Program-made: the position numbers and the translations under genes
Source of the DNA: Escherichia phage ManiWeber_Bas99
DNA: 64,000 nt
Sequence record: PQ850618.1
Strand: one strand, 5' to 3'
Part shown: positions 4,665-17,703 of the stretch, piece after piece
How the letters are laid out: each line of letters begins with the position of its first letter
Numbering within the stretch: position 1 is the first letter of the stretch
Notes under the pieces: generated by a model
What the model saw: the letters and a program-made list of their open reading frames with translations, nothing else
Told to the model about the DNA's origin: nothing
Databases searched by the model: none

Positions 4665-5804
4665 ATGACTCGCATTAGCCAAACACACTCTCGCCTCCCA
4701 GCGAGCAAGGTGCGCCCTTTTGATATGCAATCCGTGACCGACGCGGCTGTTTCCCAGCTTGCGCGTATCGGTATTGTGTTTGATTCCGCGATTGTGCGTG
4801 ATCAGATTGAGCACTTAAACCGTGCAGGCGCTTTCCGCGTAGGTGACGCCGCATTTACTGCGCCGCAGACCACGCCATCAATCCCGACCCCGCTGCAGTT
4901 CCTGCAACAGTGGCTGCCTGGCTTCGTCAAAATCATGACCGCTGCCCGTAAAATTGACGAGCTGGTTGGTATTGACACCGTTGGTCAGTGGGAAGATGCA
5001 GAAATCGTTCAGGGCATCGTTGAACCAGCTGGCACCGCAGTTGAATATGGTGATTTCACCTCTATTCCTCTGGCAAGCTGGAACGTGAACTTTGAACGCC
5101 GTTCCATCGTTCGCGGTGAAATGGGCATGGCAGTCGGCATGCTGGAAGAAGGCCGCGCGTCTGCGATGCGTCTGAACTCTGCAGAGACCAAGCGCCAGCA
5201 GGCTGCTGTATCTCTGGAAATCATGCGTAACGCAATCGGCTTCTATGGTTGGTATAACGGGAACAACCGCACGTTCGGCTTCCTGAATGATCCAAACCTG
5301 CCAGCGGCAATGACTTCAAACACCACTTCCGGCTGGGCTACTGCGACCTTCCAACAGGTGACTGCAGACATCCGTTTGATGGTTCGTCAAATCCGTGTCA
5401 ACTCTCAGGATCAGATTGATCCAGAGAAGGTTGATATGACTCTGGCGCTGCCGACCAACTCTATTGATTGGCTGTCAAACACCACCGACTTCGGTATTTC
5501 TGTACGTGACTGGATCACCCAGACTTATCCGAAGATGAAGATCAAATCCGCACCGGAACTCAACGGCGCACTTGGCAGTGACCCGACTTTCCTGAATGTG
5601 GCATATCTGTACGCTGATCACATCGATTCCTCAATTGATGGCTCAAGCGATGATGGTTCCGTATTCAGTCAGCTGGTCCAGACTAAGTTTATGACTCTGG
5701 GCGTTGAGAAACGCGCTAAGAGCTACGTTGAAGACTACGCAAACGCAACAGCAGGCGTTCTGCTCAAGCGTCCTTTCGCAGTCGTCCGTATGACTGGTAT
5801 CTAA
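4665..5804 (+). CDS. Major capsid protein (candidate)
   Basis: 379 aa ORF after the scaffold-like gene; RBS AGGTG; followed by a strong hairpin; size and position typical of an HK97-fold capsid protein. Confidence 0.55.
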
Positions 5805-5827
5805 TTGCTGTGATTACACAGTAAAAC

Positions 5828-5862
5828 ACATGGGGCGTGGTCGAAAGGCTTCGCCCCATATC
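5828..5862 (+). other. Strong stem-loop directly after the capsid gene (no clear T-run)
   Basis: ATGGGGCG-(14 nt)-CGCCCCAT, 8-bp GC-rich stem; may attenuate or stabilise the capsid transcript. Confidence 0.4.
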
Positions 5863-5919
5863 AATAGACCTCAAGGGCTGTAGGGGCTTATCTGAGGCTT
5901 ATATAAATAGGACTACAAA

Positions 5920-6384
5920 ATGCCAAAATACATCGTTTCAACTATGTCTATGTCAGTCAACTACACTTTCTATACGGAAGTGAAAGAAAACCCGAATGCA
6001 AAAGCTGGTTCAGGCGCTCTTCCAAATATTCGCAAACAGATTCTGATCAAGGGCGGTGCTGGTCTTACTTCGGCAACTTCCGGCTTTGGTGAAATGGCAA
6101 AAGGCGCTGATGGTGCACCTTTGTGGACTCCTGAAGGAATCGTCACCGTTGTAAGCGATGCTGATTTTGAACATTTAAAAGATCATCACGTATTCAAGCA
6201 GCACCTTGAAAAAGGTCTGGTTAAAGTGGTTAACCACGACATCGTTGGCAATCATAAAGCTGTCGCTAAAGAAGTGCGCGGCATGTCAGATGACCCGTTC
6301 GCGCCTATGACGCGTGAGACGGCTGACAAGCGCATCAAGGTTAAATTGAGCGGCGAACAAGAAGATGATTTGTTCCGCGTTTAA
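5920..6384 (+). CDS. Hypothetical head/neck protein
   Basis: 154 aa ORF in the structural operon; no recognisable motif. Confidence 0.3.
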   Translation: MPKYIVSTMSMSVNYTFYTEVKENPNAKAGSGALPNIRKQILIKGGAGLTSATSGFGEMAKGADGAPLWTPEGIVTVVSDADFEHLKDHHVFKQHLEKGLVKVVNHDIVGNHKAVAKEVRGMSDDPFAPMTRETADKRIKVKLSGEQEDDLFRV

Positions 6385-6398
6385 ATAAGGTGAATGCC

Positions 6399-6854
6399 AT
6401 GTCATTAGATTACGAAAAGTTCAGAATAAAATTTCCACAGTTTGCTGATCAGGTAAAATTCCATGATACAACGCTTCAAGTATTCTATGACATGGCATGT
6501 GAATTTATTGAATCACAAGACAGTCCTTGTCGTGTTTTAAATGGCAGTAAATTGGAGCTGGCATTGGAATATATGACGGCTCATCTTTTATGCATAGCCA
6601 CAGACCAACAGGTGTCTGTGTCTTCTGGTGACGGAGTTGAACAAGGCGGCTTCGTGACTGGCGCAACAATTGGTGACATCACAGTAAACAAAGTCGCGCC
6701 GCCTGCGAGTGATGGCTGGGAATACTGGCTATCAAGCACTCCATATGGAATGGCGCTGTGGGCGCTTCTTCAAGCACTGGCCGTTGGCGGCTTGTCATTC
6801 GGCGGTCTTCCAGAGCGTGAAGGATTCCGTAAAATTGGTGGGGTATTCTGGTGA
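6399..6854 (+). CDS. Hypothetical head-tail joining protein
   Basis: ATG after AAGGTGA; tightly packed with neighbours. Confidence 0.3.
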   Translation: MSLDYEKFRIKFPQFADQVKFHDTTLQVFYDMACEFIESQDSPCRVLNGSKLELALEYMTAHLLCIATDQQVSVSSGDGVEQGGFVTGATIGDITVNKVAPPASDGWEYWLSSTPYGMALWALLQALAVGGLSFGGLPEREGFRKIGGVFW

Positions 6855-7237
6855 GGATTCCTGGCGTAAACTTATATCGAGTGGCGACAAAGGTTATCGG
6901 TCGCCAACCGATTCAATATTACATGTACAAGGGGCGCACCCTTGATAAGATGCGCAACTATGTCACTACATATGAAAAACCAATCACCTTGCTTGCTTCG
7001 GTGCAGGCTGTACTTCGAAACCAATACGTTGAGCTTGGTTTAGAGCTTCAAAAGAACTATGTTAAAATCTGGGTGGACAAAGACGTTGTTGACCTTGACC
7101 GCGACGCTTCCGGCGACTATTTTGTGTTTGGTGGCAAAACGTACAAGATGGAAGATGAAACGACATGGTTTGACCAAGATGGTTGGACGACTTGCCTTGC
7201 CGTGGAAGTAAAACAAAGCTTTCCAGTGTCTACTTGA
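6851..7237 (+). CDS. Hypothetical neck protein
   Basis: 4-nt overlap with the upstream gene (translational coupling). Confidence 0.3.
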   Translation: MRIPGVNLYRVATKVIGRQPIQYYMYKGRTLDKMRNYVTTYEKPITLLASVQAVLRNQYVELGLELQKNYVKIWVDKDVVDLDRDASGDYFVFGGKTYKMEDETTWFDQDGWTTCLAVEVKQSFPVST

Positions 7238-7244
7238 GGTGTAT

Positions 7245-7820
7245 ATGACAGATGTCGACCTGATTGACATGCTGGCAACGCGAATTGAAGAAGGTCTGGC
7301 GACGTATAGTCGTGCAGACCTTTCTGCTGTTCCAGTCCAGAAAAAATACCAACCGACTCAACAGGGCATTCCGACTGGTGATCAGATTTGGTTTAACCTT
7401 TTATTCTCAGTCCCATTCGGTTGGTCAATGAGAAAGAATGAATTTGTCAATGATGAATCTCAATTTGTTAATGGCAAATTTAAAGATATTGAAGATCAGA
7501 TATACGCAACACGTTTTCAAATTAGCGGCTTATTTCCAGAAGTTCCTGGCAATCCAGAAAAGCCTACGGCTAATGACGTTTTGACTTATTTAGCAAGATT
7601 CATAACCCACAAGGCTAATTTGAGGGATTGGTTTAAAAGGCATCAAGCTTCAGTATATAGAGTCGACATGAACAACAATGAAAAGTTCTATGACGACATG
7701 TCTCAGTTTGAATCGTTTCCTTCTTTTGATTTGGTGATCCTTCACAGAAACGCAATTTCAATTGACACGCCTGCTGTTGCAAGAGCTGTTAATAACGATT
7801 TGGGCGATATTCCGGTGTGA
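7245..7820 (+). CDS. Hypothetical neck/tail completion protein
   Basis: ATG after GAGGTG; structural operon context. Confidence 0.3.
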   Translation: MTDVDLIDMLATRIEEGLATYSRADLSAVPVQKKYQPTQQGIPTGDQIWFNLLFSVPFGWSMRKNEFVNDESQFVNGKFKDIEDQIYATRFQISGLFPEVPGNPEKPTANDVLTYLARFITHKANLRDWFKRHQASVYRVDMNNNEKFYDDMSQFESFPSFDLVILHRNAISIDTPAVARAVNNDLGDIPV

Positions 7821-7821
7821 T

Positions 7822-8307
7822 ATGACAAAATCAAAAATGATAGAGAAACAGATAAAGGCGCTTCAATCAATGAAGGGTCTTACTGTTGAGGCAGGATGGT
7901 TTGACTCTACCAGATACCCTTCAGAAACTGGTGGAGAAGGTATTCTGGTGTCAGAAGTTGCGCGGCTTAATGAATTTGGTCACATAGCCGTTTTGAACTT
8001 TGGACAAGGACCAGTCAGGGTAGAAGTGCCACCCAGACCATTCATGAGATACGCCTATGAATTATTCGTTAGTGAGCGCAGTGAAATAGAGAATAAAATT
8101 GCTAAAAAAATTTTTTCCGGTAAAATAGACGCTAGACAGGCATTGGGTCAAATTGGGCTTGCGATGGAAGCAAAGATTGTCGAATCAATTAAAAACGGAC
8201 CGTGGCAGCCAAACGCCAGATATACTGTACGTGTGAAGGGATTCGACAAACCTTTGATTCACACCAGCCTCATGTGGCAATCTGTCAGCAGCCAAGTCAT
8301 TAAATAA
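7822..8307 (+). CDS. Hypothetical neck/tail completion protein
   Basis: ATG at 7822 directly after the upstream stop. Confidence 0.3.
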   Translation: MTKSKMIEKQIKALQSMKGLTVEAGWFDSTRYPSETGGEGILVSEVARLNEFGHIAVLNFGQGPVRVEVPPRPFMRYAYELFVSERSEIENKIAKKIFSGKIDARQALGQIGLAMEAKIVESIKNGPWQPNARYTVRVKGFDKPLIHTSLMWQSVSSQVIK

Positions 8308-8319
8308 GAGGACACCGAC

Positions 8320-9858
8320 GTGATCAGTCAATCTCGTTATATTAAAATTGTATCAGGGGTCGGAGCAGGCGCGGCTGTTGCAGTTCGCAAACTGTCGCTT
8401 CGCGTCATGACTTCTAATACAGTTCTGCCGCCGGGCATTGTAGCAGAATTTTCAACGGCTGATGCTGTTGGATCATATTTCGGTTATTCTTCCGAAGAAT
8501 ATAAGCGCGCAGCATTATATTTTGGATTCATCAGCAAGCAAATCAACTCGCCTGATTCAATCAGCTTCTCGCGTATTGTTTCAACTGCGATTCCAGCAAT
8601 GGTCATCGGTGATACTGAGCCTAAAGTGCTTGCTACGTTTCAAGCATTCACTGGCGCTATTTTAAGCATCACTTATGATGGCACAGACTACCTGACTGAC
8701 GCAATTAACCTTTCAGCGGCAACAAGTCTGGCGAATGTGGCTGAACTTCTGGAAACGGCAATCAATACTAAATTTGCAGCAGAAGGTGGCACGTCGGTGC
8801 CTGCACTTGCTGATGCAGAAGTGTATTGGAACGCTAATACTCAGCAGTTCACGCTGGAAGCAGCGCCGTCGACCGCTGGCGCAGGCAACCTGTCTATCAA
8901 CGTCACAGGCCAACCGACCGACCCGTCTCAAGCATTGGGTTGGACCACCACTGGCACCGTAACCGTTGCAGGCCAGGGCGTTTCAAGTCCGGTAGAAGCA
9001 ATCGCAGCATCTGTGGAAATCTCCAACAACTTCGGCTCATTCCTTTTTGCTGGGGCTGACCGAACTCTGGAAGAAATTACCGCTGTGGCAGCGTGGAATC
9101 ATTCGCAGAATAATATGTACATGTATTTATTCTCGACTTCGTTCGCTAATATCGGGTCATACTACACCGCTCTGAAAGGGTACTCAGGCGTTGGCATGAT
9201 GATTCGCGCCACTAACCTTGCAAACGATTACATCGACCAAGCGCCTGCTGAAATCCTCGCGGCGACGAACTATAATACTGTGAATGCGACTCAAAACTAC
9301 ATGTATTATCAGTTTGATACTCGCAACGTGACTGTTTCAACTGACTCTCGCGCAGATACTGCTGATCAAAACCGTGCTAACTACATCGGTGCAACTCAGC
9401 AGGCCGGACAAACCTTGGCATTCTTCCAGCGCGGCGTATTGATGGGCGGGTCTACCGCAGCAGTTGACATGAATACTTATGCCAACGAGATGTGGCTTAA
9501 ATCTGCTATCACTTCTCAGCTGTTCAGCATGTTCTTGAATCTTGGTCGCGTGCCTGCAAACGAAGAAGGTAAAGCTACTGTACAAGCCATGATTCAAGTT
9601 GCTGTTGACAATGCGAAGGTTAACGGCACCATCTCTGTTGGCAAGGCGCTGACTGAGATTCAGAAACAATACATCACGCAAACTTCCGGTGACAACACTG
9701 CTTGGCGGCAGGTTGAAACTATCGGTTACTGGCTGACTGTAGATTTTGATACTGAAACCACTTCCGATGGGCGCACCGAATACTATGCAACATACACGCT
9801 AATCTACTCTAAAGATGATGCTGTGCGTCGCGTTGAAGGTCGTGACGTCCTTATCTAA
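8320..9858 (+). CDS. Tail sheath protein (candidate)
   Basis: 512 aa; GTG start after AAGAGGA; immediately precedes the tube-like gene; baseplate J-like gene downstream. Confidence 0.5.
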   Translation: MISQSRYIKIVSGVGAGAAVAVRKLSLRVMTSNTVLPPGIVAEFSTADAVGSYFGYSSEEYKRAALYFGFISKQINSPDSISFSRIVSTAIPAMVIGDTEPKVLATFQAFTGAILSITYDGTDYLTDAINLSAATSLANVAELLETAINTKFAAEGGTSVPALADAEVYWNANTQQFTLEAAPSTAGAGNLSINVTGQPTDPSQALGWTTTGTVTVAGQGVSSPVEAIAASVEISNNFGSFLFAGADRTLEEITAVAAWNHSQNNMYMYLFSTSFANIGSYYTALKGYSGVGMMIRATNLANDYIDQAPAEILAATNYNTVNATQNYMYYQFDTRNVTVSTDSRADTADQNRANYIGATQQAGQTLAFFQRGVLMGGSTAAVDMNTYANEMWLKSAITSQLFSMFLNLGRVPANEEGKATVQAMIQVAVDNAKVNGTISVGKALTEIQKQYITQTSGDNTAWRQVETIGYWLTVDFDTETTSDGRTEYYATYTLIYSKDDAVRRVEGRDVLI

Positions 9859-9905
9859 ATAATTGCCGCCGTAACTGGCGGCCATCTCTCTGAGAGGAAT
9901 CTGTA

Positions 9906-10373
9906 ATGATTAACGTTTCCGGTTTTGGCGCTTCGATTCGTTTAGTGGCATCAAACACTTTTCCAAATGGTGTAACTCTTTCTGATTTCGCAGATGATGC
10001 TGATCCGATTGACGCGCCTGATCTTCAAATCTCTGAAGCGGCAATGGGATTGAACGGTGACTTGGTAGTCTGGAACCGTGCCAACCCTCTTGAAGTAGGC
10101 GTCAACATCATCCCTACTTCTGAAAGCGATGTAAACTTAGATGTTCTGGCAGCGGCTAACCGTGTAGGCAAGCGCAAGAACTCTGCGAAAGACGTGATCA
10201 CCCTTATTCTGACCTACCCTTCTGGCATGGTCATCACACTGAATAAGGGAACTTTGACGACTGGTTCAGTGATTCCTGGCATCCAGTCTCAGGGTCGTGT
10301 AAAAACACGTCAATATCGCTTTAAGTTTGAGAACGTAGTCAAAACTGGCGTGAGCAACCAAGAGATTTTATAA
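9906..10373 (+). CDS. Tail tube protein (candidate), paralog 1
   Basis: 155 aa; RBS GAGAGGAA; clear paralog of 11324-11821 (M(I/V)N(V/I)SGFG(A/T)SIR(L/I)VA...F(A/S)DD). Confidence 0.5.
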   Translation: MINVSGFGASIRLVASNTFPNGVTLSDFADDADPIDAPDLQISEAAMGLNGDLVVWNRANPLEVGVNIIPTSESDVNLDVLAAANRVGKRKNSAKDVITLILTYPSGMVITLNKGTLTTGSVIPGIQSQGRVKTRQYRFKFENVVKTGVSNQEIL

Positions 10374-10702
10374 TGTATCAAATACCACTTGACAGCGTAC
10401 CTAACCAGAATATCAGCTTTAACGTTGACGGTGCTTATTGGCAGCTGCACATATTCGCCGCAATTGAGCACATGTGCGCAGATGTTTACCGCAATGGCGA
10501 ATTGTTGATTCAGGGGGTACGTTGTTTTGGTGGTATACCAATGGTGCCTTATAAATATCTCATGATTGGGTACGGCAACTTTATTTTTGACAGCGTACCC
10601 GATTATGAGCATTTTAACTCTGGCGGCTGTAATTTATATTACATGTCAGAATCTGAGTTGGCTGAATTCCAGAAAACTGCTGAAGCGGAGTTTGCAATTT
10701 GA
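10373..10702 (+). CDS. Hypothetical tail protein
   Basis: 109 aa ORF coupled to the upstream gene. Confidence 0.3.
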   Translation: MYQIPLDSVPNQNISFNVDGAYWQLHIFAAIEHMCADVYRNGELLIQGVRCFGGIPMVPYKYLMIGYGNFIFDSVPDYEHFNSGGCNLYYMSESELAEFQKTAEAEFAI

Positions 10703-11055
10703 CAACTCTAACGATTGAAGTTAATGATAACAATGACCTGTTTCTGCCTGATGGAAGAAATTTGAATATTCTGTCAGGAGAAAAGGCCATGGTACAAGTT
10801 ATCAAGGCGGCGCATCAAATGCGACTTGGTGAAGACTTGTACGATGTTGAAAACGGAGTCGATTATTTAGGCACTGTTTTCAAATCGCCCGTTGATGAAG
10901 ACGGTGCGAGAAAGTCGATTGCAGATGCTATTCTGAAGAAAGCAGACGTTGCCGGAATCGACTCATTGACTGTCACCATCCAAAACGGTATTCTTGGATT
11001 CACCGCTGAAGTGGTGACTATTTATGGCGAACGTATAAAGGTGAGTAATCAATAA
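10699..11055 (+). CDS. Hypothetical tail protein
   Basis: 118 aa ORF with 4-nt overlap upstream. Confidence 0.3.
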   Translation: MTTLTIEVNDNNDLFLPDGRNLNILSGEKAMVQVIKAAHQMRLGEDLYDVENGVDYLGTVFKSPVDEDGARKSIADAILKKADVAGIDSLTVTIQNGILGFTAEVVTIYGERIKVSNQ

Positions 11056-11321
11056 TGGCACAAGTAATTCATTTTGCTAATGGCGTCATGAAATTTGGCG
11101 AAAAATTTGAAGACGCATCGGAATTATTCAAAAAGACTTCAAACCCTGTTGCGGAGAAGAAAGAACAGGTTGAAGAGAAGGCAGTAGAATCGAAAGTTGA
11201 TTTCGATTCAATGAGCGTCTCTGAATTGAAGGCTTATGCAAAGGAACATGAGATTGACATCAAGGGTCTTTCTTATAAGGATGAAATTCTTGCTGCAGTT
11301 AAATCTGCATCTGCGGAGTAA
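11055..11321 (+). CDS. Hypothetical protein with Rho-N/SAP-like C-terminal motif
   Basis: 88 aa; C-terminal ...SVSELKAYAKEHEIDIKGLSYKDEILAAV resembles Rho N-terminal / SAP helix-extended motifs. Confidence 0.3.
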   Translation: MAQVIHFANGVMKFGEKFEDASELFKKTSNPVAEKKEQVEEKAVESKVDFDSMSVSELKAYAKEHEIDIKGLSYKDEILAAVKSASAE

Positions 11322-11323
11322 AC

Positions 11324-11821
11324 ATGGTCAATATTAGTGGATTTGGCACAAGCATTAGAATTGTCGCTCTTCAATCTTTTCCTGTTGGGCTGAATATCAG
11401 TTCTTTTTCTGATGACCAGGATTCGCTAATTATTGAGGAAGTTGAATCAGTAGGTTATCAACTTACTTACGACGGCAGCATTTGCATATACGACAAAGCC
11501 GCCGTCGTTCGCGTATCCATTGCGGTCATTCCAAACACTGAAGATGACATAAATCTTAAGCTTTTATTATCTGCCCGTAAAGGTGGATTCAAGTGGTTGC
11601 CAATTCAGGATGTGACATCAATGCTTATTACATATCCTGACGGTGGAAGGGTGGCATTCTCTAACGGAACAATAATCAGCGGTCCGCTTGGTGACTCCAT
11701 AGAGCAATCAGGCCGTCGCAAGACAAACCGATACACATTTGTGTTTGCCAGCTACGGCGGCGCGCAGAGCACGTCTCAAATTGCCAAGGGCGTGGTGCAG
11801 AGCATATTGGGGTCCATTTAA
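11324..11821 (+). CDS. Tail tube protein paralog 2
   Basis: 165 aa; N-terminal and overall similarity to 9906-10373. Confidence 0.5.
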   Translation: MVNISGFGTSIRIVALQSFPVGLNISSFSDDQDSLIIEEVESVGYQLTYDGSICIYDKAAVVRVSIAVIPNTEDDINLKLLLSARKGGFKWLPIQDVTSMLITYPDGGRVAFSNGTIISGPLGDSIEQSGRRKTNRYTFVFASYGGAQSTSQIAKGVVQSILGSI

Positions 11822-12354
11822 TGGCTATCGATTTACTGTCATATAGTCTATCAAACAGAAGCTTCACGATAAAGAGCTTCAACCTTGGAGAAGTATCCAC
11901 GCTTGGATGGGCCATAGTCAACGTCAAAATAAGACTCCAAGCGAAGATATTCAAAAACCAAAGGGAAGACGGCAGCTATATTGTCGATGGCAGAGTAAAG
12001 ATGCCGCGAATACTCACTGTCACCGTGATAGCGCAAACGAAAAGTGCATCAGATGCAATAGCTAAAATGCTGCAAAACAGGTCGACTATATACACAATTA
12101 ATTCCCGTGGTCTAATATTCGAACGTATGGTGCTGCAAAATAACAACTTCAGCCAGGACGCTGACAATATAACGTCTCAGCCCATACAATTGGTCTTCCA
12201 TGAGATATTAACACAGCAGGATGTGTCTATTCAAACAGCGCAGGCAGGCGACTCAACAGTAATAGAGCGCGGCATTGCATACATAAAAGAAACTTCTGCC
12301 AGCGTCACTGGCGTCGCTACAAAGGTGATGAATGGTATCAAGGGGATGTTCTGA
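11821..12354 (+). CDS. Hypothetical tail protein
   Basis: 177 aa ORF in the tail operon. Confidence 0.3.
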   Translation: MAIDLLSYSLSNRSFTIKSFNLGEVSTLGWAIVNVKIRLQAKIFKNQREDGSYIVDGRVKMPRILTVTVIAQTKSASDAIAKMLQNRSTIYTINSRGLIFERMVLQNNNFSQDADNITSQPIQLVFHEILTQQDVSIQTAQAGDSTVIERGIAYIKETSASVTGVATKVMNGIKGMF

Positions 12355-12914
12355 TGGACTTCGTTTCGATTCTGCTTTCTGGTCAATCTTTGACCATAAC
12401 GAATGAGTCAACAGGTCTTCCTGTCTGGACAAGGCTTTCACCTGTTTCTGCAGAAATAACATCCCCAGCAGAAACAACTCAATTCCCTCTTGCTGGTACA
12501 GCCATGCAGGTTGTCGAAGTATCAAGCACGTCATCAGTAAGCAATTTACAGGCGGCAAAGGTTGTAATGCCAGCCCATATGGCGTTAAACGTAATTTGCA
12601 ATGACCAGTCTACAATTGAAAATATCATAAATTCATTTGATGATGACGAAGTCACATTTTCAATAACTTCACGAAGCATCATTGCCAGTAAAATGTCGAT
12701 GTCCGACGTTGAAATAACCCAGTCAGAAGAAAACTTGAATGGAGTCTCAATAGTAATAACCTTCGAGCAAACGTCATTTAGCATTCAAGGAAGCTTCGAC
12801 CCTAAACAATCTGCAGACGAATCATCAAATGGTGTTGCTATTAAAGAACCAGTCAGTTTGACTACAACTGTGAGTTCGTTATATAATAAAATAAAATCAA
12901 CAGTAGGAATATAA
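12354..12914 (+). CDS. Hypothetical tail protein
   Basis: 186 aa ORF in the tail operon. Confidence 0.3.
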   Translation: MDFVSILLSGQSLTITNESTGLPVWTRLSPVSAEITSPAETTQFPLAGTAMQVVEVSSTSSVSNLQAAKVVMPAHMALNVICNDQSTIENIINSFDDDEVTFSITSRSIIASKMSMSDVEITQSEENLNGVSIVITFEQTSFSIQGSFDPKQSADESSNGVAIKEPVSLTTTVSSLYNKIKSTVGI

Positions 12915-12915
12915 A

Positions 12916-13332
12916 ATGAAGATCACCAACAAACAAACTGGTCGTACAGTAGAAATTAAAATCAGCAAAATGACTGCGATGGAAGGCTGGAATATTCAGC
13001 GTCGCTTTGTCGAATTTGCAATGTCGAAAGACCCTGCTTTTCGTTCAGAGTATACGATGGAAGTGTTGAGCTTCGCAAAAGTCGAGCTTGATGTGGGCCA
13101 AGAAATCCCATTAAGTACTGGTGCACTAATTGACAACCATCTTGGTGACTGGGAAAACCTTAAAGAAGTCTTCGAAGCAGTCCTCATGGAGAACGGTATA
13201 AACCCAGATACTCACGCCGAGCGTGAAGGCTACTGGGAACAAGCTGGCGGCGAAATGGCTGCAGCATTCATCGGCGAATCGATGCGATTAATCGCGCCAT
13301 TCCTCAGCGGCGAGACTCCAAACAAGGGGTAA
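12916..13332 (+). CDS. Putative tail assembly chaperone
   Basis: 138 aa acidic protein immediately upstream of the tape measure gene; call is by position only. Confidence 0.35.
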   Translation: MKITNKQTGRTVEIKISKMTAMEGWNIQRRFVEFAMSKDPAFRSEYTMEVLSFAKVELDVGQEIPLSTGALIDNHLGDWENLKEVFEAVLMENGINPDTHAEREGYWEQAGGEMAAAFIGESMRLIAPFLSGETPNKG

Positions 13333-13335
13333 ACT

Positions 13336-15516
13336 GTGTCTGACTCATTAGAAAAATTTGTGCTTCAATATACGGTGGACTTGAAAGAGTCCATCAATCG
13401 TCTTGAGCAATTGCAAGATAAAGTTGATCAGACAAACAAAAAGGCGAAATCCGCTGGCAAAGATTTCTCTGGAGCATTCAAAGATGTTTTTGGCGAGCTA
13501 AAGCCGCTTACTGGTGAGCTAGGGTCAATTGACGGAATACTTGCGCGGCTGACATATCGTTTTGCCGCGCTCGTTCCTGTTGTCGCAGGATTGGCAGTCG
13601 TCGTCAAATCCATCGTTGATGTTCGAAAAGAATACGAAGCGCAAAGAAAGCTTGGTTTTGAAGCCGGACTCTCTCCAATGGGTGTCGAACAACTACAACG
13701 ACAGTTGAATGAAAGTTCAGGTGGCATCCTTGGCGCACAGGGGTCGCGAGACTTAATCAGCAAAGCTTCTAATCTGGCATTCAATGCATACACCAACCCC
13801 GATGTGATGAACAAGGACAACTTGTTGTTGAACAAGATGGGGACAAGTCCTTTCAACAGTAACGGCGGCATCAAAGACACGAATCAGCTGCTTGATGAAA
13901 TTGGAACAAAGCTGAGAAGTGTTAATGAGCAAACCGCTCGTGCCATTGGTGCTCTGGCAGGTTTTACCGCCGATGAAGTCCGCGCCCTTCGCGAGCGCAA
14001 CCAGTCTGTGAAAGAAAGCACACGCATAAGCGATGAGGAAACGGCAAAGCTGCAGCGCCAACAAGCTGCTCTTGAGACTATACGAAATAGTATGGGGCAA
14101 ATTCAAGAAGATTGGCGACGTATTGAATTGGTCATCGGTGAAAACGTTATGCCTGCATTCTCGACGCTTGTCAGCAAAACCGCCGATACAGTCGAAGGAT
14201 TCCAGATGATGTTCCAAAGAATGTCTGACGGATGGAGCGAATTTGTCGACAATTTCATTGCTGACTTGAAACACCCGTTTGATAAACAGGCGGCTGTTAA
14301 CGAGCGTCACGAGCGTGCCGTTGATAGATGGATCACGCAGATGGCCGAAGGCGATGTGAAACGCCAGAGGAACCAGGAGCAAAACGCAGCTGAACAACGT
14401 TCTGCGCAAGCACTTTTCACTCGCGATATAAACCTGTTTTCAAGCGCCGTTTCAACATTTGCTGGCGTCATTGATGAGCGACAAGCATGGGCTGCATGGG
14501 CTGGTGAAATAGGACGAAGCGCAGGTCAATCTGCCATGCCTGGAACACCAGCACTAAGTACTGGCGCGACCGTAGGCAACAACTTGGGATCAGGCAATCC
14601 GACCGCTTACGACTCAATCTATGAGGAAGCATCCAAGCGTTATGGAATCCCTGTTGCGATGATGAAGGCCGTAACAGAAGTCGAATCTGGATTCAACCCC
14701 AATGCCGTAAGCGGAGCAGGTGCGACCGGACTGATGCAAATCATGCCTTCCAACTTCAAGGGTCTTGGTATCACAGACGGCAACGACCCTAGACAAAACA
14801 TTATGGGCGGCGCTCAACTGTTGAAAGAGTATTTAAACGCTGCCAACGGCGATTGGAATCTTGCGCTGACGATGTATCACGGTGGCTACGACCGCAGCGG
14901 CTGGGGCAAGAATACACGCGCTTATCCTGGAAAGGTCATGGCCGCTCTCGACCGACAATCCAATGGTGAGTATGCCACGGCAGCGCCGCAAGGTGCACCA
15001 GTTACTCCAGTGCTTAGCGGTAGCGGAGCGGAAGCACCAAAGGGCAGCTATGCACCAGTACAAGGCCAATCGCGCCAAACGGTGCAATACAGGCAATTGC
15101 AAGAAGCCATTGCAGGATACCTGAACGTACCAGTTGAGCAGTTGATGCAGGGACAAGTCAACAAAGGCGATATTGACTTTGCTCAAACTTACCTTAAGCT
15201 TGGAACGCAAAGGGATTATATTAAAAACATGCAACTGGCTTCAACTCCAGGTGTAAGACCGAACATTCAAGCCGAAGCGATGAAAAACGCTCGTCTTGCT
15301 GCATTCCAACTTGAAGCATTCCAGAAATACGGCGGCGACCTTTCCGCGAATAGTCGACCTGGTGGGCGTGATATTACTATGGGTCAGAAAAACGTTGTCA
15401 TCAACGTCAACGGCGCTCAAGACCCACGCAGCACGGCATTCGAAACGAAACGAGTGCTTGAACAAGATGATATCAACGACATAAACAACCTTACTGCTAC
15501 ACCTTTGAAGTGGTGA
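13336..15516 (+). CDS. Tail tape measure protein with lytic transglycosylase (SLT) domain
   Basis: 726 aa; GTG start after AAGGGG; coiled-coil-like N-terminal half; SLT motif ...AMMKAVTEVESGFNPNAVSGAGATGLMQIMPSNF. Confidence 0.7.
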   Translation: MSDSLEKFVLQYTVDLKESINRLEQLQDKVDQTNKKAKSAGKDFSGAFKDVFGELKPLTGELGSIDGILARLTYRFAALVPVVAGLAVVVKSIVDVRKEYEAQRKLGFEAGLSPMGVEQLQRQLNESSGGILGAQGSRDLISKASNLAFNAYTNPDVMNKDNLLLNKMGTSPFNSNGGIKDTNQLLDEIGTKLRSVNEQTARAIGALAGFTADEVRALRERNQSVKESTRISDEETAKLQRQQAALETIRNSMGQIQEDWRRIELVIGENVMPAFSTLVSKTADTVEGFQMMFQRMSDGWSEFVDNFIADLKHPFDKQAAVNERHERAVDRWITQMAEGDVKRQRNQEQNAAEQRSAQALFTRDINLFSSAVSTFAGVIDERQAWAAWAGEIGRSAGQSAMPGTPALSTGATVGNNLGSGNPTAYDSIYEEASKRYGIPVAMMKAVTEVESGFNPNAVSGAGATGLMQIMPSNFKGLGITDGNDPRQNIMGGAQLLKEYLNAANGDWNLALTMYHGGYDRSGWGKNTRAYPGKVMAALDRQSNGEYATAAPQGAPVTPVLSGSGAEAPKGSYAPVQGQSRQTVQYRQLQEAIAGYLNVPVEQLMQGQVNKGDIDFAQTYLKLGTQRDYIKNMQLASTPGVRPNIQAEAMKNARLAAFQLEAFQKYGGDLSANSRPGGRDITMGQKNVVINVNGAQDPRSTAFETKRVLEQDDINDINNLTATPLKW

Positions 15517-15520
15517 TAAT

Positions 15521-16393
15521 TTGAAAAAGAGAATCCTTAAAGTCACCTTATCTATGCCGGATGGCACAAGCCAAGTGCTTGATGAAGGATTGATGCTTAG
15601 ATGCCGAATCAAAAAGGCAGCACTTTCCGTGCAAAATAAGGCCACAATCGAAGTCGCAGGATTGACAGGGTACTTGAGAGAGTACCTGCTTTCCAACTTC
15701 ACCGCATTCAACAAACGTCTGCGTGATCAAGGCCAATTGGCGGCGAATTACGTCAACGTAACAATTGAAGCTGGATATAGAGAAGGCAACGTTGTTAGCA
15801 GCAACTTGGTATACAAGGGACAGGTGACGACTGTCGAGATAACAGCGCCGCCGCCGAACATCGTCATACGCATCACTTGCTACACCAACCAGATAAACAG
15901 GACTAAGTTTATCACTCAAGCTGCACCGTCAAACCCAACCTTCAAAGAGTTTGTGGAGTGGTCAGCAAAGCAAATGGATATTGATACTGTTATATGCGAT
16001 ACGTCGATTAACAATCAGCGCCTTGTTAACCCAGGCCGCACAACATATGTTGCAGCAGCCTTGCTGCTTGAGATTCAGAACTATCAAAGGAACTCTATTG
16101 CGGCATATATCGATGATGATACGCTCATCGTCAAGGATAAAGACAAAATTCTGAATCCAGAACAGATAACGGTGATTGAGGAATTTGTCGGAATACCGAT
16201 GTGGAACGAGTGGGGCGCTGACTTCACTTGCATGTATAACGCGGATTTGAAGCTTGCCCAAGGTGTGAAATTCAAATCAGTCTTAAACCCAAGCTTGAAC
16301 GACACCACATTCGTCATCATGCAACTTGAATATGATTTAGCAAGTCGTGATGACATATTTACGGTGACGGGCGGCGTTGCACCATCGGCCTAA
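15521..16393 (+). CDS. Tail/baseplate protein
   Basis: 290 aa ORF directly after the tape measure gene; TTG start. Confidence 0.35.
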   Translation: MKKRILKVTLSMPDGTSQVLDEGLMLRCRIKKAALSVQNKATIEVAGLTGYLREYLLSNFTAFNKRLRDQGQLAANYVNVTIEAGYREGNVVSSNLVYKGQVTTVEITAPPPNIVIRITCYTNQINRTKFITQAAPSNPTFKEFVEWSAKQMDIDTVICDTSINNQRLVNPGRTTYVAAALLLEIQNYQRNSIAAYIDDDTLIVKDKDKILNPEQITVIEEFVGIPMWNEWGADFTCMYNADLKLAQGVKFKSVLNPSLNDTTFVIMQLEYDLASRDDIFTVTGGVAPSA

Positions 16394-16395
16394 AT

Positions 16396-16917
16396 ATGAG
16401 AAAGAATAAAGTAATTGAGTTGTTTGGAGTTACTTATGAAATACATCAATTCAGCGCAATAGATGCGTTTGAAATGGTTGATGCGATAAGCATATTAACT
16501 CCACTTGAATTATTAAGTGAATGTCATGTTATTAAATATGACGGAACTAAAGTCAGGTTGAATTCTGAGAAGGCCATCAGTGAAGAAGTGAAAAGTGTGC
16601 CAAATCACTTGCCGCCCAACCTTGTATTGAAAGTTCTAATGGAAGCGGTAAAGAAGCACAATTTTGGATTCCTCAGTGATTGGAAAGGCACTAAGATTCC
16701 AAATAGATTCTTGGCTGACGTTCCGACCGTGGAGCCTAATTATCTTGAGCCGATGGTTGCAAGCCTAATAAACAATGGTCTTGCTTCGTTAAAAGAATTG
16801 GAAGAATATTATTCATTGCGTGATGCATTCGCCATGTTTGATGGACTAATAGCAAAATCACTTAATGAAGCCTACTCAAACGAAGCTGCCATTAAAGAAT
16901 CAAAGTCAAATCGCTAA
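16396..16917 (+). CDS. Hypothetical baseplate-associated protein
   Basis: 173 aa ORF. Confidence 0.3.
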   Translation: MRKNKVIELFGVTYEIHQFSAIDAFEMVDAISILTPLELLSECHVIKYDGTKVRLNSEKAISEEVKSVPNHLPPNLVLKVLMEAVKKHNFGFLSDWKGTKIPNRFLADVPTVEPNYLEPMVASLINNGLASLKELEEYYSLRDAFAMFDGLIAKSLNEAYSNEAAIKESKSNR

Positions 16918-16974
16918 AATATTGCTTATAGACTCCTTATAGATTATAATTTGTTGATCAGATATAAGGAGTCT

Positions 16975-17703
16975 ATGATGGCAGAAAAGTTAACCCAACT
17001 TACAAGCCCCAACCAAACTGACAAATCAAGTATGTTTGCCGCGCTGCAGGGAATGCTGGACCGTGGCAAGTATACCACTGACGGCATGATTCCTGCACAA
17101 GTAATATCTTATGACCGCAAACAGAATTTAGCAGTCATAAAGCCTGTTATTCATTTCGTAAGTCTTGATGATAGACCAGTGGAGCGTCAACCACTGGTGT
17201 CAATTCCTGTATTGGCAATCGGCGGCGGCGGCTTCGTAATCAACTTTCCTCTGAAAGAGGGTGATTTGGGCTGGATATTCGCTGGCGACCGCGAGTTGTC
17301 GACATTCCTTGAAGAATTGAAGCCGACCGCGCCTACCAATGGCCGCGCGAAAACTTTCGCTGATGGACTGTTCATACCGGATGTATTTAGAAAATACACC
17401 ATAAGCGGAGAGGATGCAGGCTCAATGGTAATCCAGTCACTCAGCGGCGCTGTCCGCATTGCATTAAGTGATGACTCGATAAACATAACTGCATCGGCTG
17501 GAGTAAATGTGAAAACACCAATAACCACTATCGACCAACAATTGATAGTTAATGGAAAGGCAACGTTCAATGGTGGTATAGAAGGGAAAGAAGGAACGAC
17601 GGCAACGCTTCCGACTGGCACAACAATCGGCGGCACAAATGTATCCACTCACGGTCACATAGGTAACGGACCTGGAAACAGAACTGGGGATATGATAGAA
17701 TGA
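16975..17703 (+). CDS. Baseplate central spike (gpV-like) candidate
   Basis: ATG after AAGGAG; Gly-rich C-terminal region with THGH motif; immediately upstream of the J-like gene. Confidence 0.4.
   Translation: MMAEKLTQLTSPNQTDKSSMFAALQGMLDRGKYTTDGMIPAQVISYDRKQNLAVIKPVIHFVSLDDRPVERQPLVSIPVLAIGGGGFVINFPLKEGDLGWIFAGDRELSTFLEELKPTAPTNGRAKTFADGLFIPDVFRKYTISGEDAGSMVIQSLSGAVRIALSDDSINITASAGVNVKTPITTIDQQLIVNGKATFNGGIEGKEGTTATLPTGTTIGGTNVSTHGHIGNGPGNRTGDMIE

What the first reader, a model, noticed from the sequence alone, without database searches (positions are those of the whole stretch)
9906..11821. Duplicated tail tube gene
Genes 9906-10373 and 11324-11821 are clear paralogs (conserved N-terminal MxNxSGFGxSIRxVA and overall length), separated by three small genes. 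Contractile tails normally use a single tube protein. The second copy could be a tube initiator/terminator or a specialised ring.
Basis: seen in the sequence. Interest (0 to 1): 0.4.

Follow-up and report, generated by a model that had tools for sequence, protein, structure and literature searches.

The report
Tail tube plus baseplate-tube paralog
The two similar genes are real paralogs, but they are an ordinary, already solved arrangement: one builds the long tail tube and the other a single six-subunit ring that joins the tube to the baseplate, as cryo-EM shows in related Pseudomonas phages.

Summary
ORFs 9906-10373 (155 aa) and 11324-11821 (165 aa) are paralogs: 34% identity over 143 aa, E 1e-33. 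Both belong to Pfam PF22764, and three small genes lie between them.

The window is an Escherichia phage of genus Wifcevirus, 98.5% identical to HansTraber_Bas100. Its tail module is collinear with Pseudomonas Pbunavirus phages E217 and Pa193, whose virions are solved by cryo-EM.

- **Copy A** is the orthologue of the major tail tube, E217 gp32 / Pa193 gp33 (E 1e-42 to 1e-48).
- **Copy B** is the orthologue of E217 gp36 "tail tube-B" / Pa193 gp37 "baseplate tube" (E 1e-49 to 1e-52). That protein forms one hexameric ring under the tube and docks the gp37/gp38 hetero-hexamer and hub.

The duplication is ancient. A and B form separate clades across four genera (200/200 bootstraps), and about 360 of 381 phage records carry both copies. 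Both are under strong purifying selection (dN/dS mostly 0.05 or less).

The capsid-proximal end of the tube is capped by a separate gateway homolog (7239-7820), so the "terminator" reading fails. Having tube-fold paralogs in the baseplate is the rule for contractile systems (T4 gp48/gp54/gp19; PVC Pvc7/Pvc5/Pvc1), not an exception.

Verdict: already known, low interest.

The parts
7239..7820 (+). Gateway (tube/sheath terminator, capsid-proximal) homolog. It shows that the terminator role is taken by a different protein.
   Evidence: PDB phmmer: E217 gateway gp29 8fvh_M 3.5e-16, Pa193 gp30 gateway 9b42_J 3.9e-16
8320..9858 (+). Tail sheath (512 aa)
   Evidence: PF11863 2.3e-120; E217 gp31 / Pa193 gp32 sheath, E 1e-167
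9906..10373 (+). Copy A: major tail tube protein (155 aa), orthologue of E217 gp32 / Pa193 gp33
   Evidence: PDB 9b42_M 'gp33 Tail tube' 1.9e-48, 8fuv_T E217 gp32 5.8e-42. Falls in the A clade in the tree. Lies directly downstream of the sheath gene. dN/dS 0-0.04.
10373..10702 (+). Baseplate adaptor (E217 gp33 / Pa193 gp34 'helical bundle'; Pam3 gp18 plug family)
   Evidence: PF22479 4.8e-16; 9b45_A 7.1e-26, 8env_G 1.4e-25
10699..11055 (+). Sheath initiator (E217 gp34 / Pa193 gp35)
   Evidence: 9b45_G 4.6e-23, 8env_H 1.3e-21
11055..11321 (+). Small ORF (88 aa) in the variable 'gp35 slot'; function unknown; sub-threshold SAP/HeH-like matches at the C-terminus
   Evidence: Pfam SAP/DUF6887/Rho_N matches at residues 47-87, all just below their cutoffs. 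No detectable similarity to E217 gp35.
11324..11821 (+). Copy B: baseplate tube / 'tail tube-B' (165 aa), orthologue of E217 gp36 / Pa193 gp37. Inferred to form a single hexameric ring between the tube and the gp37/gp38-like ring.
   Evidence: PDB 9b45_M 'gp37 Baseplate tube' 1.1e-52, 8env_I E217 gp36 2.1e-49. B clade supported 200/200. B-specific C-terminal extension. dN/dS about 0.02 against four relatives.
11821..12354 (+). gp37-like baseplate cap subunit (Pa193 'ripcord-1'); half of the 3+3 hetero-hexamer beneath copy B
   Evidence: 9b45_S 1.1e-20, 8eon_A 2.9e-20; PF22760
12354..12914 (+). gp38-like baseplate cap subunit (Pa193 'ripcord-2'); distant paralog of the preceding gene
   Evidence: 9b45_V 1.3e-27, 8eon_D 1.6e-27; PF22760 1.8e-71; pairwise E 2e-4 with 11821-12354
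12916..13332 (+). gp39-slot ORF (138 aa), function unknown
   Evidence: phrog_4627 3.9e-63, no function assigned; syntenic with E217 gp39
13336..15516 (+). Tape measure / lytic tail protein with an SLT transglycosylase domain
   Evidence: PF01464 2.8e-24; phrog_2013 4.8e-139
15521..16393 (+). Baseplate hub (E217 gp41 / Pa193 gp42)
   Evidence: 8eon_E 2.5e-85

Best explanation
The two genes are ancient paralogs with divided roles in one contractile tail. Copy A (9906-10373) is the major tube protein; it polymerises into a stack of hexameric rings inside the sheath (34 rings, 204 subunits, in E217). Copy B (11324-11821) is the 'baseplate tube' or 'tail tube-B'. Six subunits form one ring, coaxial with the tube, at its baseplate end. 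The lower face of that ring docks three gp37-like/gp38-like heterodimers (11821-12914), which step the symmetry down from six-fold to three-fold for the trimeric hub (15521-16393) and tip. Its upper face presents a tube-like surface on which copy A polymerises. After contraction the ring stays on the tube tip together with the cap. Shown here: paralogy, orthology of each copy to a protein of solved structure, full synteny, conservation, and purifying selection. Inferred by homology and not observed for this phage: copy number, position in the virion, and the templating role.
For: - **Paralogy:** E 1e-33; both copies are in PF22764.
- **Orthology by score asymmetry:** Copy A scores 167 and 146 bits against the Pa193 gp33 and E217 gp32 tubes, but 91 bits against the baseplate-tube proteins. 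Copy B scores 181 and 170 bits against Pa193 gp37 and E217 gp36, but 84 and 64 bits against the tubes.
- **Published structures:** E217 gp36, 'tail tube-B', forms a hexameric ring concentric with gp32 and binds 3x gp37/gp38. It remains on the tip after contraction (PMC10329688). Pa193 gp37 gives the same picture (PMC11456595). E217 has 34 gp32 rings.
- **Synteny:** gene order matches E217 gp29 and gp31-gp41, with each solved partner identified.
- **Ancient split:** an NJ tree of A and B from Wifcevirus, Pbunavirus, Myosmarvirus and Bcepfunavirus separates the A and B clades in 200/200 bootstraps. All four B proteins carry a C-terminal extension of about 20 aa that A lacks.
- **Distribution:** tblastn found 381 phage records and 741 places, so about 360 records carry both copies.
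- **Selection:** neither copy has an internal stop in 6 Wifcevirus genomes. dN/dS is 0-0.04 for A. For B it is about 0.02 against four relatives and 0.18 against near-identical Bas100, a value that rests on very few substitutions.
- **Literature for this genus:** the BASEL paper states that Wifcevirus structural genes were annotated from the Pbunavirus cryo-EM structure.
Against: There is no virion structure or proteome for this phage or for any Wifcevirus, so placement and stoichiometry rest on about 51-53% sequence identity to the solved orthologues. The single-sequence AlphaFold model of copy B was uninformative (pLDDT 32), so the fold was not independently confirmed here. Database labels disagree with the structural assignment and with each other: Pfam, PHROGs and GenBank say 'tail fiber protein', and PDB 8env says 'Ripcord gp36'.
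Confidence: 0.93

Rival explanations
1. Copy B is the tube terminator: a ring that caps the capsid-proximal end of the tube and stops polymerisation.
For: Tube-fold proteins do serve as terminators in some tails (general knowledge).
Against: Copy B's orthologues sit at the baseplate end in two solved virions. A separate homolog of the E217 gp29 / Pa193 gp30 gateway protein, which caps the tube and sheath at the neck, is encoded at 7239-7820. Copy B's gene lies among baseplate genes, not neck genes.
Confidence: 0.01
2. Both copies are interchangeable or co-polymerising major tube subunits, forming a mixed or alternating tube.
For: They share a fold family and similar length. Some extracellular contractile systems alternate paralogous sheath subunits (PVC Pvc2/Pvc3).
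Against: In E217 and Pa193 the tube proper is built of one protein only, and the B orthologue is modelled in 6 chains. The A and B clades have stayed distinct across four genera at about 30% identity, and only B has the C-terminal extension. That pattern fits fixed, different roles.
Confidence: 0.03
3. Copy B is a redundant or decaying duplicate with no essential role.
For: None beyond the bare fact of duplication.
Against: It is intact in all six Wifcevirus genomes compared. dN/dS is about 0.02 at dS about 0.5, and 51 of 57 variable sites are third codon positions. It is retained next to the same partners in Pseudomonas, Burkholderia and Serratia phages, and two matches per record occur in about 360 phage records. 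It has its own GGAG ribosome-binding site 5 nt before the ATG.
Confidence: 0.01

Closest known systems
Pseudomonas phage E217 gp32 (tail tube, PDB 8FUV) and gp36 ('tail tube-B', PDB 8ENV/8EON); Pbunavirus
   Same: The same Pfam family holds both copies. Gene order is the same: sheath, tube, two adaptors, one small ORF, tube-B, gp37, gp38, gp39, TMP, hub. Identity is 53% (A vs gp32) and 51% (B vs gp36). B has the same C-terminal extension.
   Different: The host and genus differ (E. coli Wifcevirus). E217 gp36 has a 2-residue insertion (GI) that is absent here. The small ORF in the gp35 slot is unrelated in sequence and shorter, 88 vs 143 aa.
Pseudomonas phage Pa193 gp33 (tail tube, PDB 9B42) and gp37 (baseplate tube, PDB 9B45)
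   Same: These are the best PDB matches for A (1.9e-48) and B (1.1e-52). The hexameric gp37 ring is the platform for the gp38/gp39 hetero-hexamer.
   Different: The differences are the same as for E217.
Phage T4 gp19 / gp54 / gp48, and PVC Pvc1 / Pvc5 / Pvc7 (also Afp1/Afp5/Afp7)
   Same: The layered logic is the same: a hub, then an initiator ring, then one ring of a tube paralog, then the repeating tube. All layers have the tube fold. Copy B occupies the position of gp54 or Pvc5, and the gp37/38-like ring that of gp48 or Pvc7.
   Different: No sequence homology to these proteins was tested or claimed here. In this lineage the initiator layer is a 3+3 hetero-hexamer of two paralogs with a separate small adaptor (Pam3 gp18-like), rather than a LysM-bearing homohexamer as in Pvc7 or Mu gp43.
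Single-copy relatives (Bordetella phage vB_BaM-IFTN5, Stenotrophomonas phage B2; genomes of about 43 kb)
   Same: They have one A-type tube gene directly after the sheath gene. It is 46% identical to copy A and 29% to copy B.
   Different: tblastn detects no B-type paralog in them, and they have a different baseplate gene set. The A/B pair is therefore specific to the lineage of about 65-72-kb phages that includes Pbunavirus and Wifcevirus.

Membership tests
Pfam PF22764 (E217_Gp32; tube-fold family of Pbunavirus-like myophages) | Whole-protein score above the curated gathering threshold (27 bits) with near full-length coverage | tested here: met
   Copy A scores 202.5 bits over residues 2-144 of 155. 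Copy B scores 183.6 bits over residues 3-144 of 165.
Major tail tube (E217 gp32 / Pa193 gp33 orthologue group): copy A | Closer to solved tube proteins than to baseplate-tube proteins; falls in the A clade | tested here: met
   167 and 146 bits against the tubes, 91 bits against the baseplate tubes. 53% vs 39% identity, and the A clade in the NJ tree.
Major tail tube (E217 gp32 / Pa193 gp33 orthologue group): copy A | Gene lies immediately downstream of the sheath gene | tested here: met
   The sheath gene ends at 9858 and copy A starts at 9906. E217, Hera, BcepF1 and the Bordetella phage have the same order.
Major tail tube (E217 gp32 / Pa193 gp33 orthologue group): copy A | Polymerises into many stacked hexameric rings in the virion | not testable with these tools
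   Known for E217 (34 rings). There are no virion data for this phage.
Baseplate tube / tail tube-B (E217 gp36 / Pa193 gp37 orthologue group): copy B | Closer to solved baseplate-tube proteins than to tube proteins; falls in the B clade | tested here: met
   181 and 170 bits against the baseplate tubes, 84 and 64 bits against the tubes. The B clade is supported in 200/200 bootstraps.
Baseplate tube / tail tube-B (E217 gp36 / Pa193 gp37 orthologue group): copy B | C-terminal extension of about 20 aa beyond the tube core (GAQ...Q....Q.IL) | tested here: met
   Present in the window, E217, Hera and BcepF1 B proteins and absent from all A proteins. The alignment to 9b45_M runs to residue 162.
Baseplate tube / tail tube-B (E217 gp36 / Pa193 gp37 orthologue group): copy B | Binding partners are encoded: the gp37/gp38-type pair directly downstream, plus a gp41-type hub | tested here: met
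   11821-12354 and 12354-12914 match E217 gp37/gp38. The hub at 15521-16393 scores 2.5e-85.
Baseplate tube / tail tube-B (E217 gp36 / Pa193 gp37 orthologue group): copy B | Forms a single hexameric ring between the tube and the gp37/gp38 ring in the virion | not testable with these tools
   Shown for E217 and Pa193 by cryo-EM and inferred here by homology. The single-sequence AF2 model was unusable (pLDDT 32).
Tube/sheath terminator (gateway, E217 gp29 / Pa193 gp30) | Sequence similarity to the solved neck-proximal capping protein, and a gene among the neck genes | tested here: not met
   Copy B's only PDB matches are tube and baseplate-tube chains. The gateway homolog is a different gene, 7239-7820.
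T4 gp54 / PVC Pvc5 / Afp5 (second tube-fold layer of the baseplate) | Sequence or structural homology to gp54 or Pvc5 | not tested
   Only a positional and functional analogy is drawn, from the literature. No usable structural model was available for a fold search.

The most novel reading that the evidence does not exclude
The baseplate-cap genes, starting within copy B and running through the gp37-like, gp38-like and gp39-slot genes (about 11407-13272), behave as an exchangeable cassette. The window and Bas100 carry an allele about 12% diverged at the nucleotide level, while the flanking sheath, tube, adaptor and TMP genes are at least 99% identical to other Wifcevirus phages. If that reflects selection for co-adapted cap modules, and not a neutral recombination tract, copy B would be the interface that lets a conserved tube accept swapped baseplate caps. 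Alternatively, copy B in Wifcevirus might have an extra role at the tube tip during the reportedly very fast infection cycle.
Probability: 0.07. Interest if true: 0.3.

Novelty: already known. Interest (0 to 1): 0.08.

Why it matters
It matters little for discovery, because the arrangement has been solved at near-atomic resolution in two Pbunavirus phages. That structure has already been used to annotate Wifcevirus genomes. The practical value is a correction to annotation. Public records, Pfam PF22764 and PHROGs 2420/2580 label the tube, the baseplate tube and the gp37/gp38-like cap proteins as 'tail fiber protein', which is wrong and spreads automatically to new records. The example also shows that a second tube-like gene near a sheath gene should be read by default as a baseplate ring, not as an anomaly.

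Tried and rejected
- **AlphaFold2, single sequence, copy B:** mean pLDDT 32 and pTM 0.23, so the model was unusable and no fold search was run.
- **PDB search with 7822-8304, the ORF just upstream of the sheath gene:** no match, so it could not be assigned.
- **Window ORF 11055-11321 vs E217 gp35:** no significant similarity (E 0.23), so the occupant of that slot stays unassigned.
- **Promoter and terminator scan of 5000-17000:** counts did not exceed shuffled expectation. It gave no evidence for a terminator that would set the A:B expression ratio.
- **tRNA and Rfam scans of the whole window:** nothing found.
- **Literature search for PB1-like virion proteomes:** nothing that added to the cryo-EM papers.
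- **Recent gene conversion as the cause of the shared N-terminal motif:** rejected, because the codons differ.
- **Strong synonymous constraint on copy A as the cause of its low dS:** rejected in favour of a recombination tract, because the neighbouring low-abundance adaptor genes are also 100% identical.

Full report
**1. The observation**

ORF listing shows + strand ORFs at exactly 9906-10373 (155 aa) and 11324-11821 (165 aa). Three short ORFs lie between them: 10373-10702, 10699-11055 and 11055-11321. BLASTP of the two proteins gives 34% identity and 62% positives over 143 ungapped residues, E 1e-33.

The underlying codons differ. The similarity is therefore protein-level conservation, not recent gene conversion. 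Both proteins belong to Pfam PF22764 (E217_Gp32; 202.5 and 183.6 bits against a cutoff of 27) and to PHROG 2420.

**2. What the window is**

Megablast of 8300-13400 finds 28 phage records covering at least 80% of the query, 26 of them Escherichia phages, plus one Shigella phage and one record named Wifcevirus WFH. The best match is HansTraber_Bas100 at 98.5% identity. The records fetched are classified in genus Wifcevirus, and the newest one places the genus in family Lindbergviridae. The BASEL-collection paper describes Wifcevirus as a distant relative of Pbunavirus. It states that the Pbunavirus cryo-EM structure was used to annotate Wifcevirus structural genes.

**3. Identity of each copy**

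Searches against PDB sequences are decisive.

| Query | Match | Molecule | E-value | Bits |
|---|---|---|---|---|
| Copy A | 9b42_M | Pa193 gp33, tail tube | 1.9e-48 | 167 |
| Copy A | 8fuv_T | E217 gp32 | 5.8e-42 | 146 |
| Copy A | 9b45_M, 8env_I | baseplate-tube proteins | about 4e-25 | 91 |
| Copy B | 9b45_M | Pa193 gp37, baseplate tube | 1.1e-52 | 181 |
| Copy B | 8env_I | E217 gp36 | 2.1e-49 | 170 |
| Copy B | 9b42_M, 8fuv_T | tubes | 1.3e-22, 1.8e-16 | 84, 64 |

Copy A results are and copy B results. Copy B aligns to 9b45_M over residues 1-162.

The E217 paper (PMC10329688) describes gp36 as 'tail tube-B'. [quoted passage not shown] It provides the attachment surface for three gp37/gp38 heterodimers, which in turn hold the trimeric hub gp41 and tip gp43. 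After contraction, gp36, gp37/gp38 and gp41 remain at the tube tip. The Pa193 paper (PMC11456595) reports the same arrangement for gp37. E217 has 34 stacked gp32 rings, so the expected ratio is about 204 tube subunits to 6 tube-B subunits.

**4. Context**

Every neighbour has its solved counterpart, in the same order as E217 gp29 and gp31-gp41:

- gateway, 7239-7820
- sheath, 8320-9858 (E 1e-167)
- gp33-type adaptor, 10373-10702
- sheath initiator, 10699-11055
- gp37-like, 11821-12354
- gp38-like, 12354-12914
- SLT-bearing tape measure, 13336-15516
- hub, 15521-16393 (2.5e-85)

The E217, Serratia Hera and Burkholderia BcepF1 loci show the same gene order. Because a separate gateway homolog exists, the 'terminator' alternative for copy B is rejected.

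**5. Age and conservation of the duplication**

I aligned A and B proteins from the window, E217, Hera and BcepF1, together with the single-copy Bordetella phage IFTN5 protein. Within-type identities are 43-58% and between-type identities 25-39%. An NJ tree splits the A and B clades in 200/200 bootstraps, and the single-copy protein groups with A. All B proteins share a C-terminal extension of about 20 residues that A lacks.

tblastn of copy B against 50,697 phage records finds 381 records and 741 places. About 360 records therefore carry both paralogs. Pseudomonas dominates (295 records), followed by Escherichia (26), Burkholderia (10), Serratia (9), Bordetella (8), Vibrio (7) and Xanthomonas (6). 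Among the records listed, two 43-kb phages (Bordetella IFTN5 and Stenotrophomonas B2) and one partial match in Pseudomonas phage PRS-1 show a single place.

Within Wifcevirus, both genes are intact in all six genomes compared.

- **Copy A:** 14 variable nucleotide columns, 12 of them at third codon positions, and 1 variable amino-acid column. dN/dS is 0-0.04.
- **Copy B:** 57 variable columns, 51 at third positions, and 4 variable amino-acid columns. dN/dS is about 0.02 against four relatives. Against near-identical Bas100 it is 0.18, which rests on very few substitutions.

Both genes are under strong purifying selection, and neither is a decaying duplicate.

**6. Mechanism**

- **Shown here:** paralogy, orthology to solved proteins, synteny, conservation and selection.
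- **Inferred by homology:** six copy-B subunits form one ring on top of the 3+3 gp37-like/gp38-like ring. That ring presents a tube-like surface on which copy A polymerises, around the tape measure, to make the tube. The ring stays on the tube tip after contraction.
- **Unknown:** how expression is tuned to a ratio of about 30:1. Each gene has a Shine-Dalgarno sequence, GAGAGGAA 7 nt upstream for A and GGAG 5 nt upstream for B. The terminator scan gave nothing above background.

**7. Comparison with what is known**

This is the same system as in Pbunavirus, found in a sister genus. More broadly, it follows the general layered design of contractile injection systems: hub, initiator ring, one ring of a tube paralog, then the repeating tube. 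A PVC structure paper states that Pvc7, Pvc5 and Pvc1 share one fold and correspond to T4 gp48, gp54 and gp19, with Pvc5 forming a single ring. The Mu paper summarises the tube-like initiators of Pam3, XM1 and E217. The guess of a specialised ring or initiator is right.

**8. Verdict**

The feature is already known. Interest is 0.08. The main useful by-product is recognising that the 'tail fiber protein' labels on these genes in Pfam, PHROGs and GenBank are misnomers.

**9. Dead ends**

- The single-sequence AF2 model was unusable (pLDDT 32).
- ORF 7822-8304 has no PDB match.
- The gp35-slot ORF is unrelated to E217 gp35.
- The window has no tRNA genes or Rfam matches.

Noticed in passing
window about 11407-13272: Mosaic block. 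The window and Bas100 share an allele about 12% diverged at the nucleotide level from Ro157lw, FEC19, kaset and ECO71P1; in copy B, where it was measured, the changes are mostly synonymous. It starts within copy B (first clustered differences at 11407-11455), covers the gp37-like, gp38-like and gp39-slot genes, and ends just before the tape-measure start. Flanks on both sides are at least 99% identical (0-3 differences per 100 nt). It looks like a homologous-recombination tract spanning the baseplate-cap genes.
   Followed up: partly
Both hit PF22760 (Gp38_E217) and PHROG 2580, with pairwise E 2e-4 at 21% identity. They are orthologues of E217 gp37/gp38, which form the 3+3 hetero-hexamer that steps six-fold symmetry down to three-fold.
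   Followed up: yes
window 9906-10373, 11324-11821, 11821-12914; L001, L004, L009: Annotation misnomer. The tube, the baseplate tube and the gp37/gp38-like cap proteins are all called 'tail fiber protein' in Pfam PF22764's name, in PHROGs 2420/2580 and in the GenBank records of Bas100, kaset and BcepF1. PDB 8ENV calls E217 gp36 'Ripcord', whereas 9B45 uses 'ripcord' for gp38/gp39.
   Followed up: yes
window 11055-11321: An 88-aa ORF in the slot of E217 gp35, with sub-threshold SAP/HeH-like (Rho_N, DUF6887) matches at its C-terminus. It shows no detectable similarity to E217 gp35 (143 aa). The slot holds ORFs of 84 aa in Hera and 71 aa in BcepF1. The E217 paper never mentions gp35, and the Pa193 paper never mentions its counterpart gp36. 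In Bas100 this ORF carries its own divergent patch (30 differences per 100 nt at about 11101-11200) where the window matches the other phages.
   Followed up: partly
window 9865-9882: A perfect G+C-rich inverted repeat, GCCGCC-GTAACT-GGCGGC (6 G-C pairs), in the 47-nt sheath-tube intergenic spacer. It lies just upstream of the tube gene's GAGAGGAA ribosome-binding site. On the + strand it has no T-run, so it could be an mRNA-stabilising or processing hairpin, not a terminator.
   Followed up: no
window 15521-16393 vs L001 15255-16094: The hub ORF read from the TTG at 15521 aligns from residue 1 to residue 1 of E217 gp41 / Pa193 gp42. The Bas100 GenBank annotation starts the gene 33 nt downstream. 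The deposited start may be too short.
   Followed up: no
window 7822-8307: The ORF between the gateway and sheath genes, annotated 'tail completion or Neck1 protein' in Bas100, has no match among PDB sequences at E 0.01. Its positional counterpart in Pa193 (gp31) is one of the proteins detected by LC-MS but not placed in the cryo-EM maps.
   Followed up: partly
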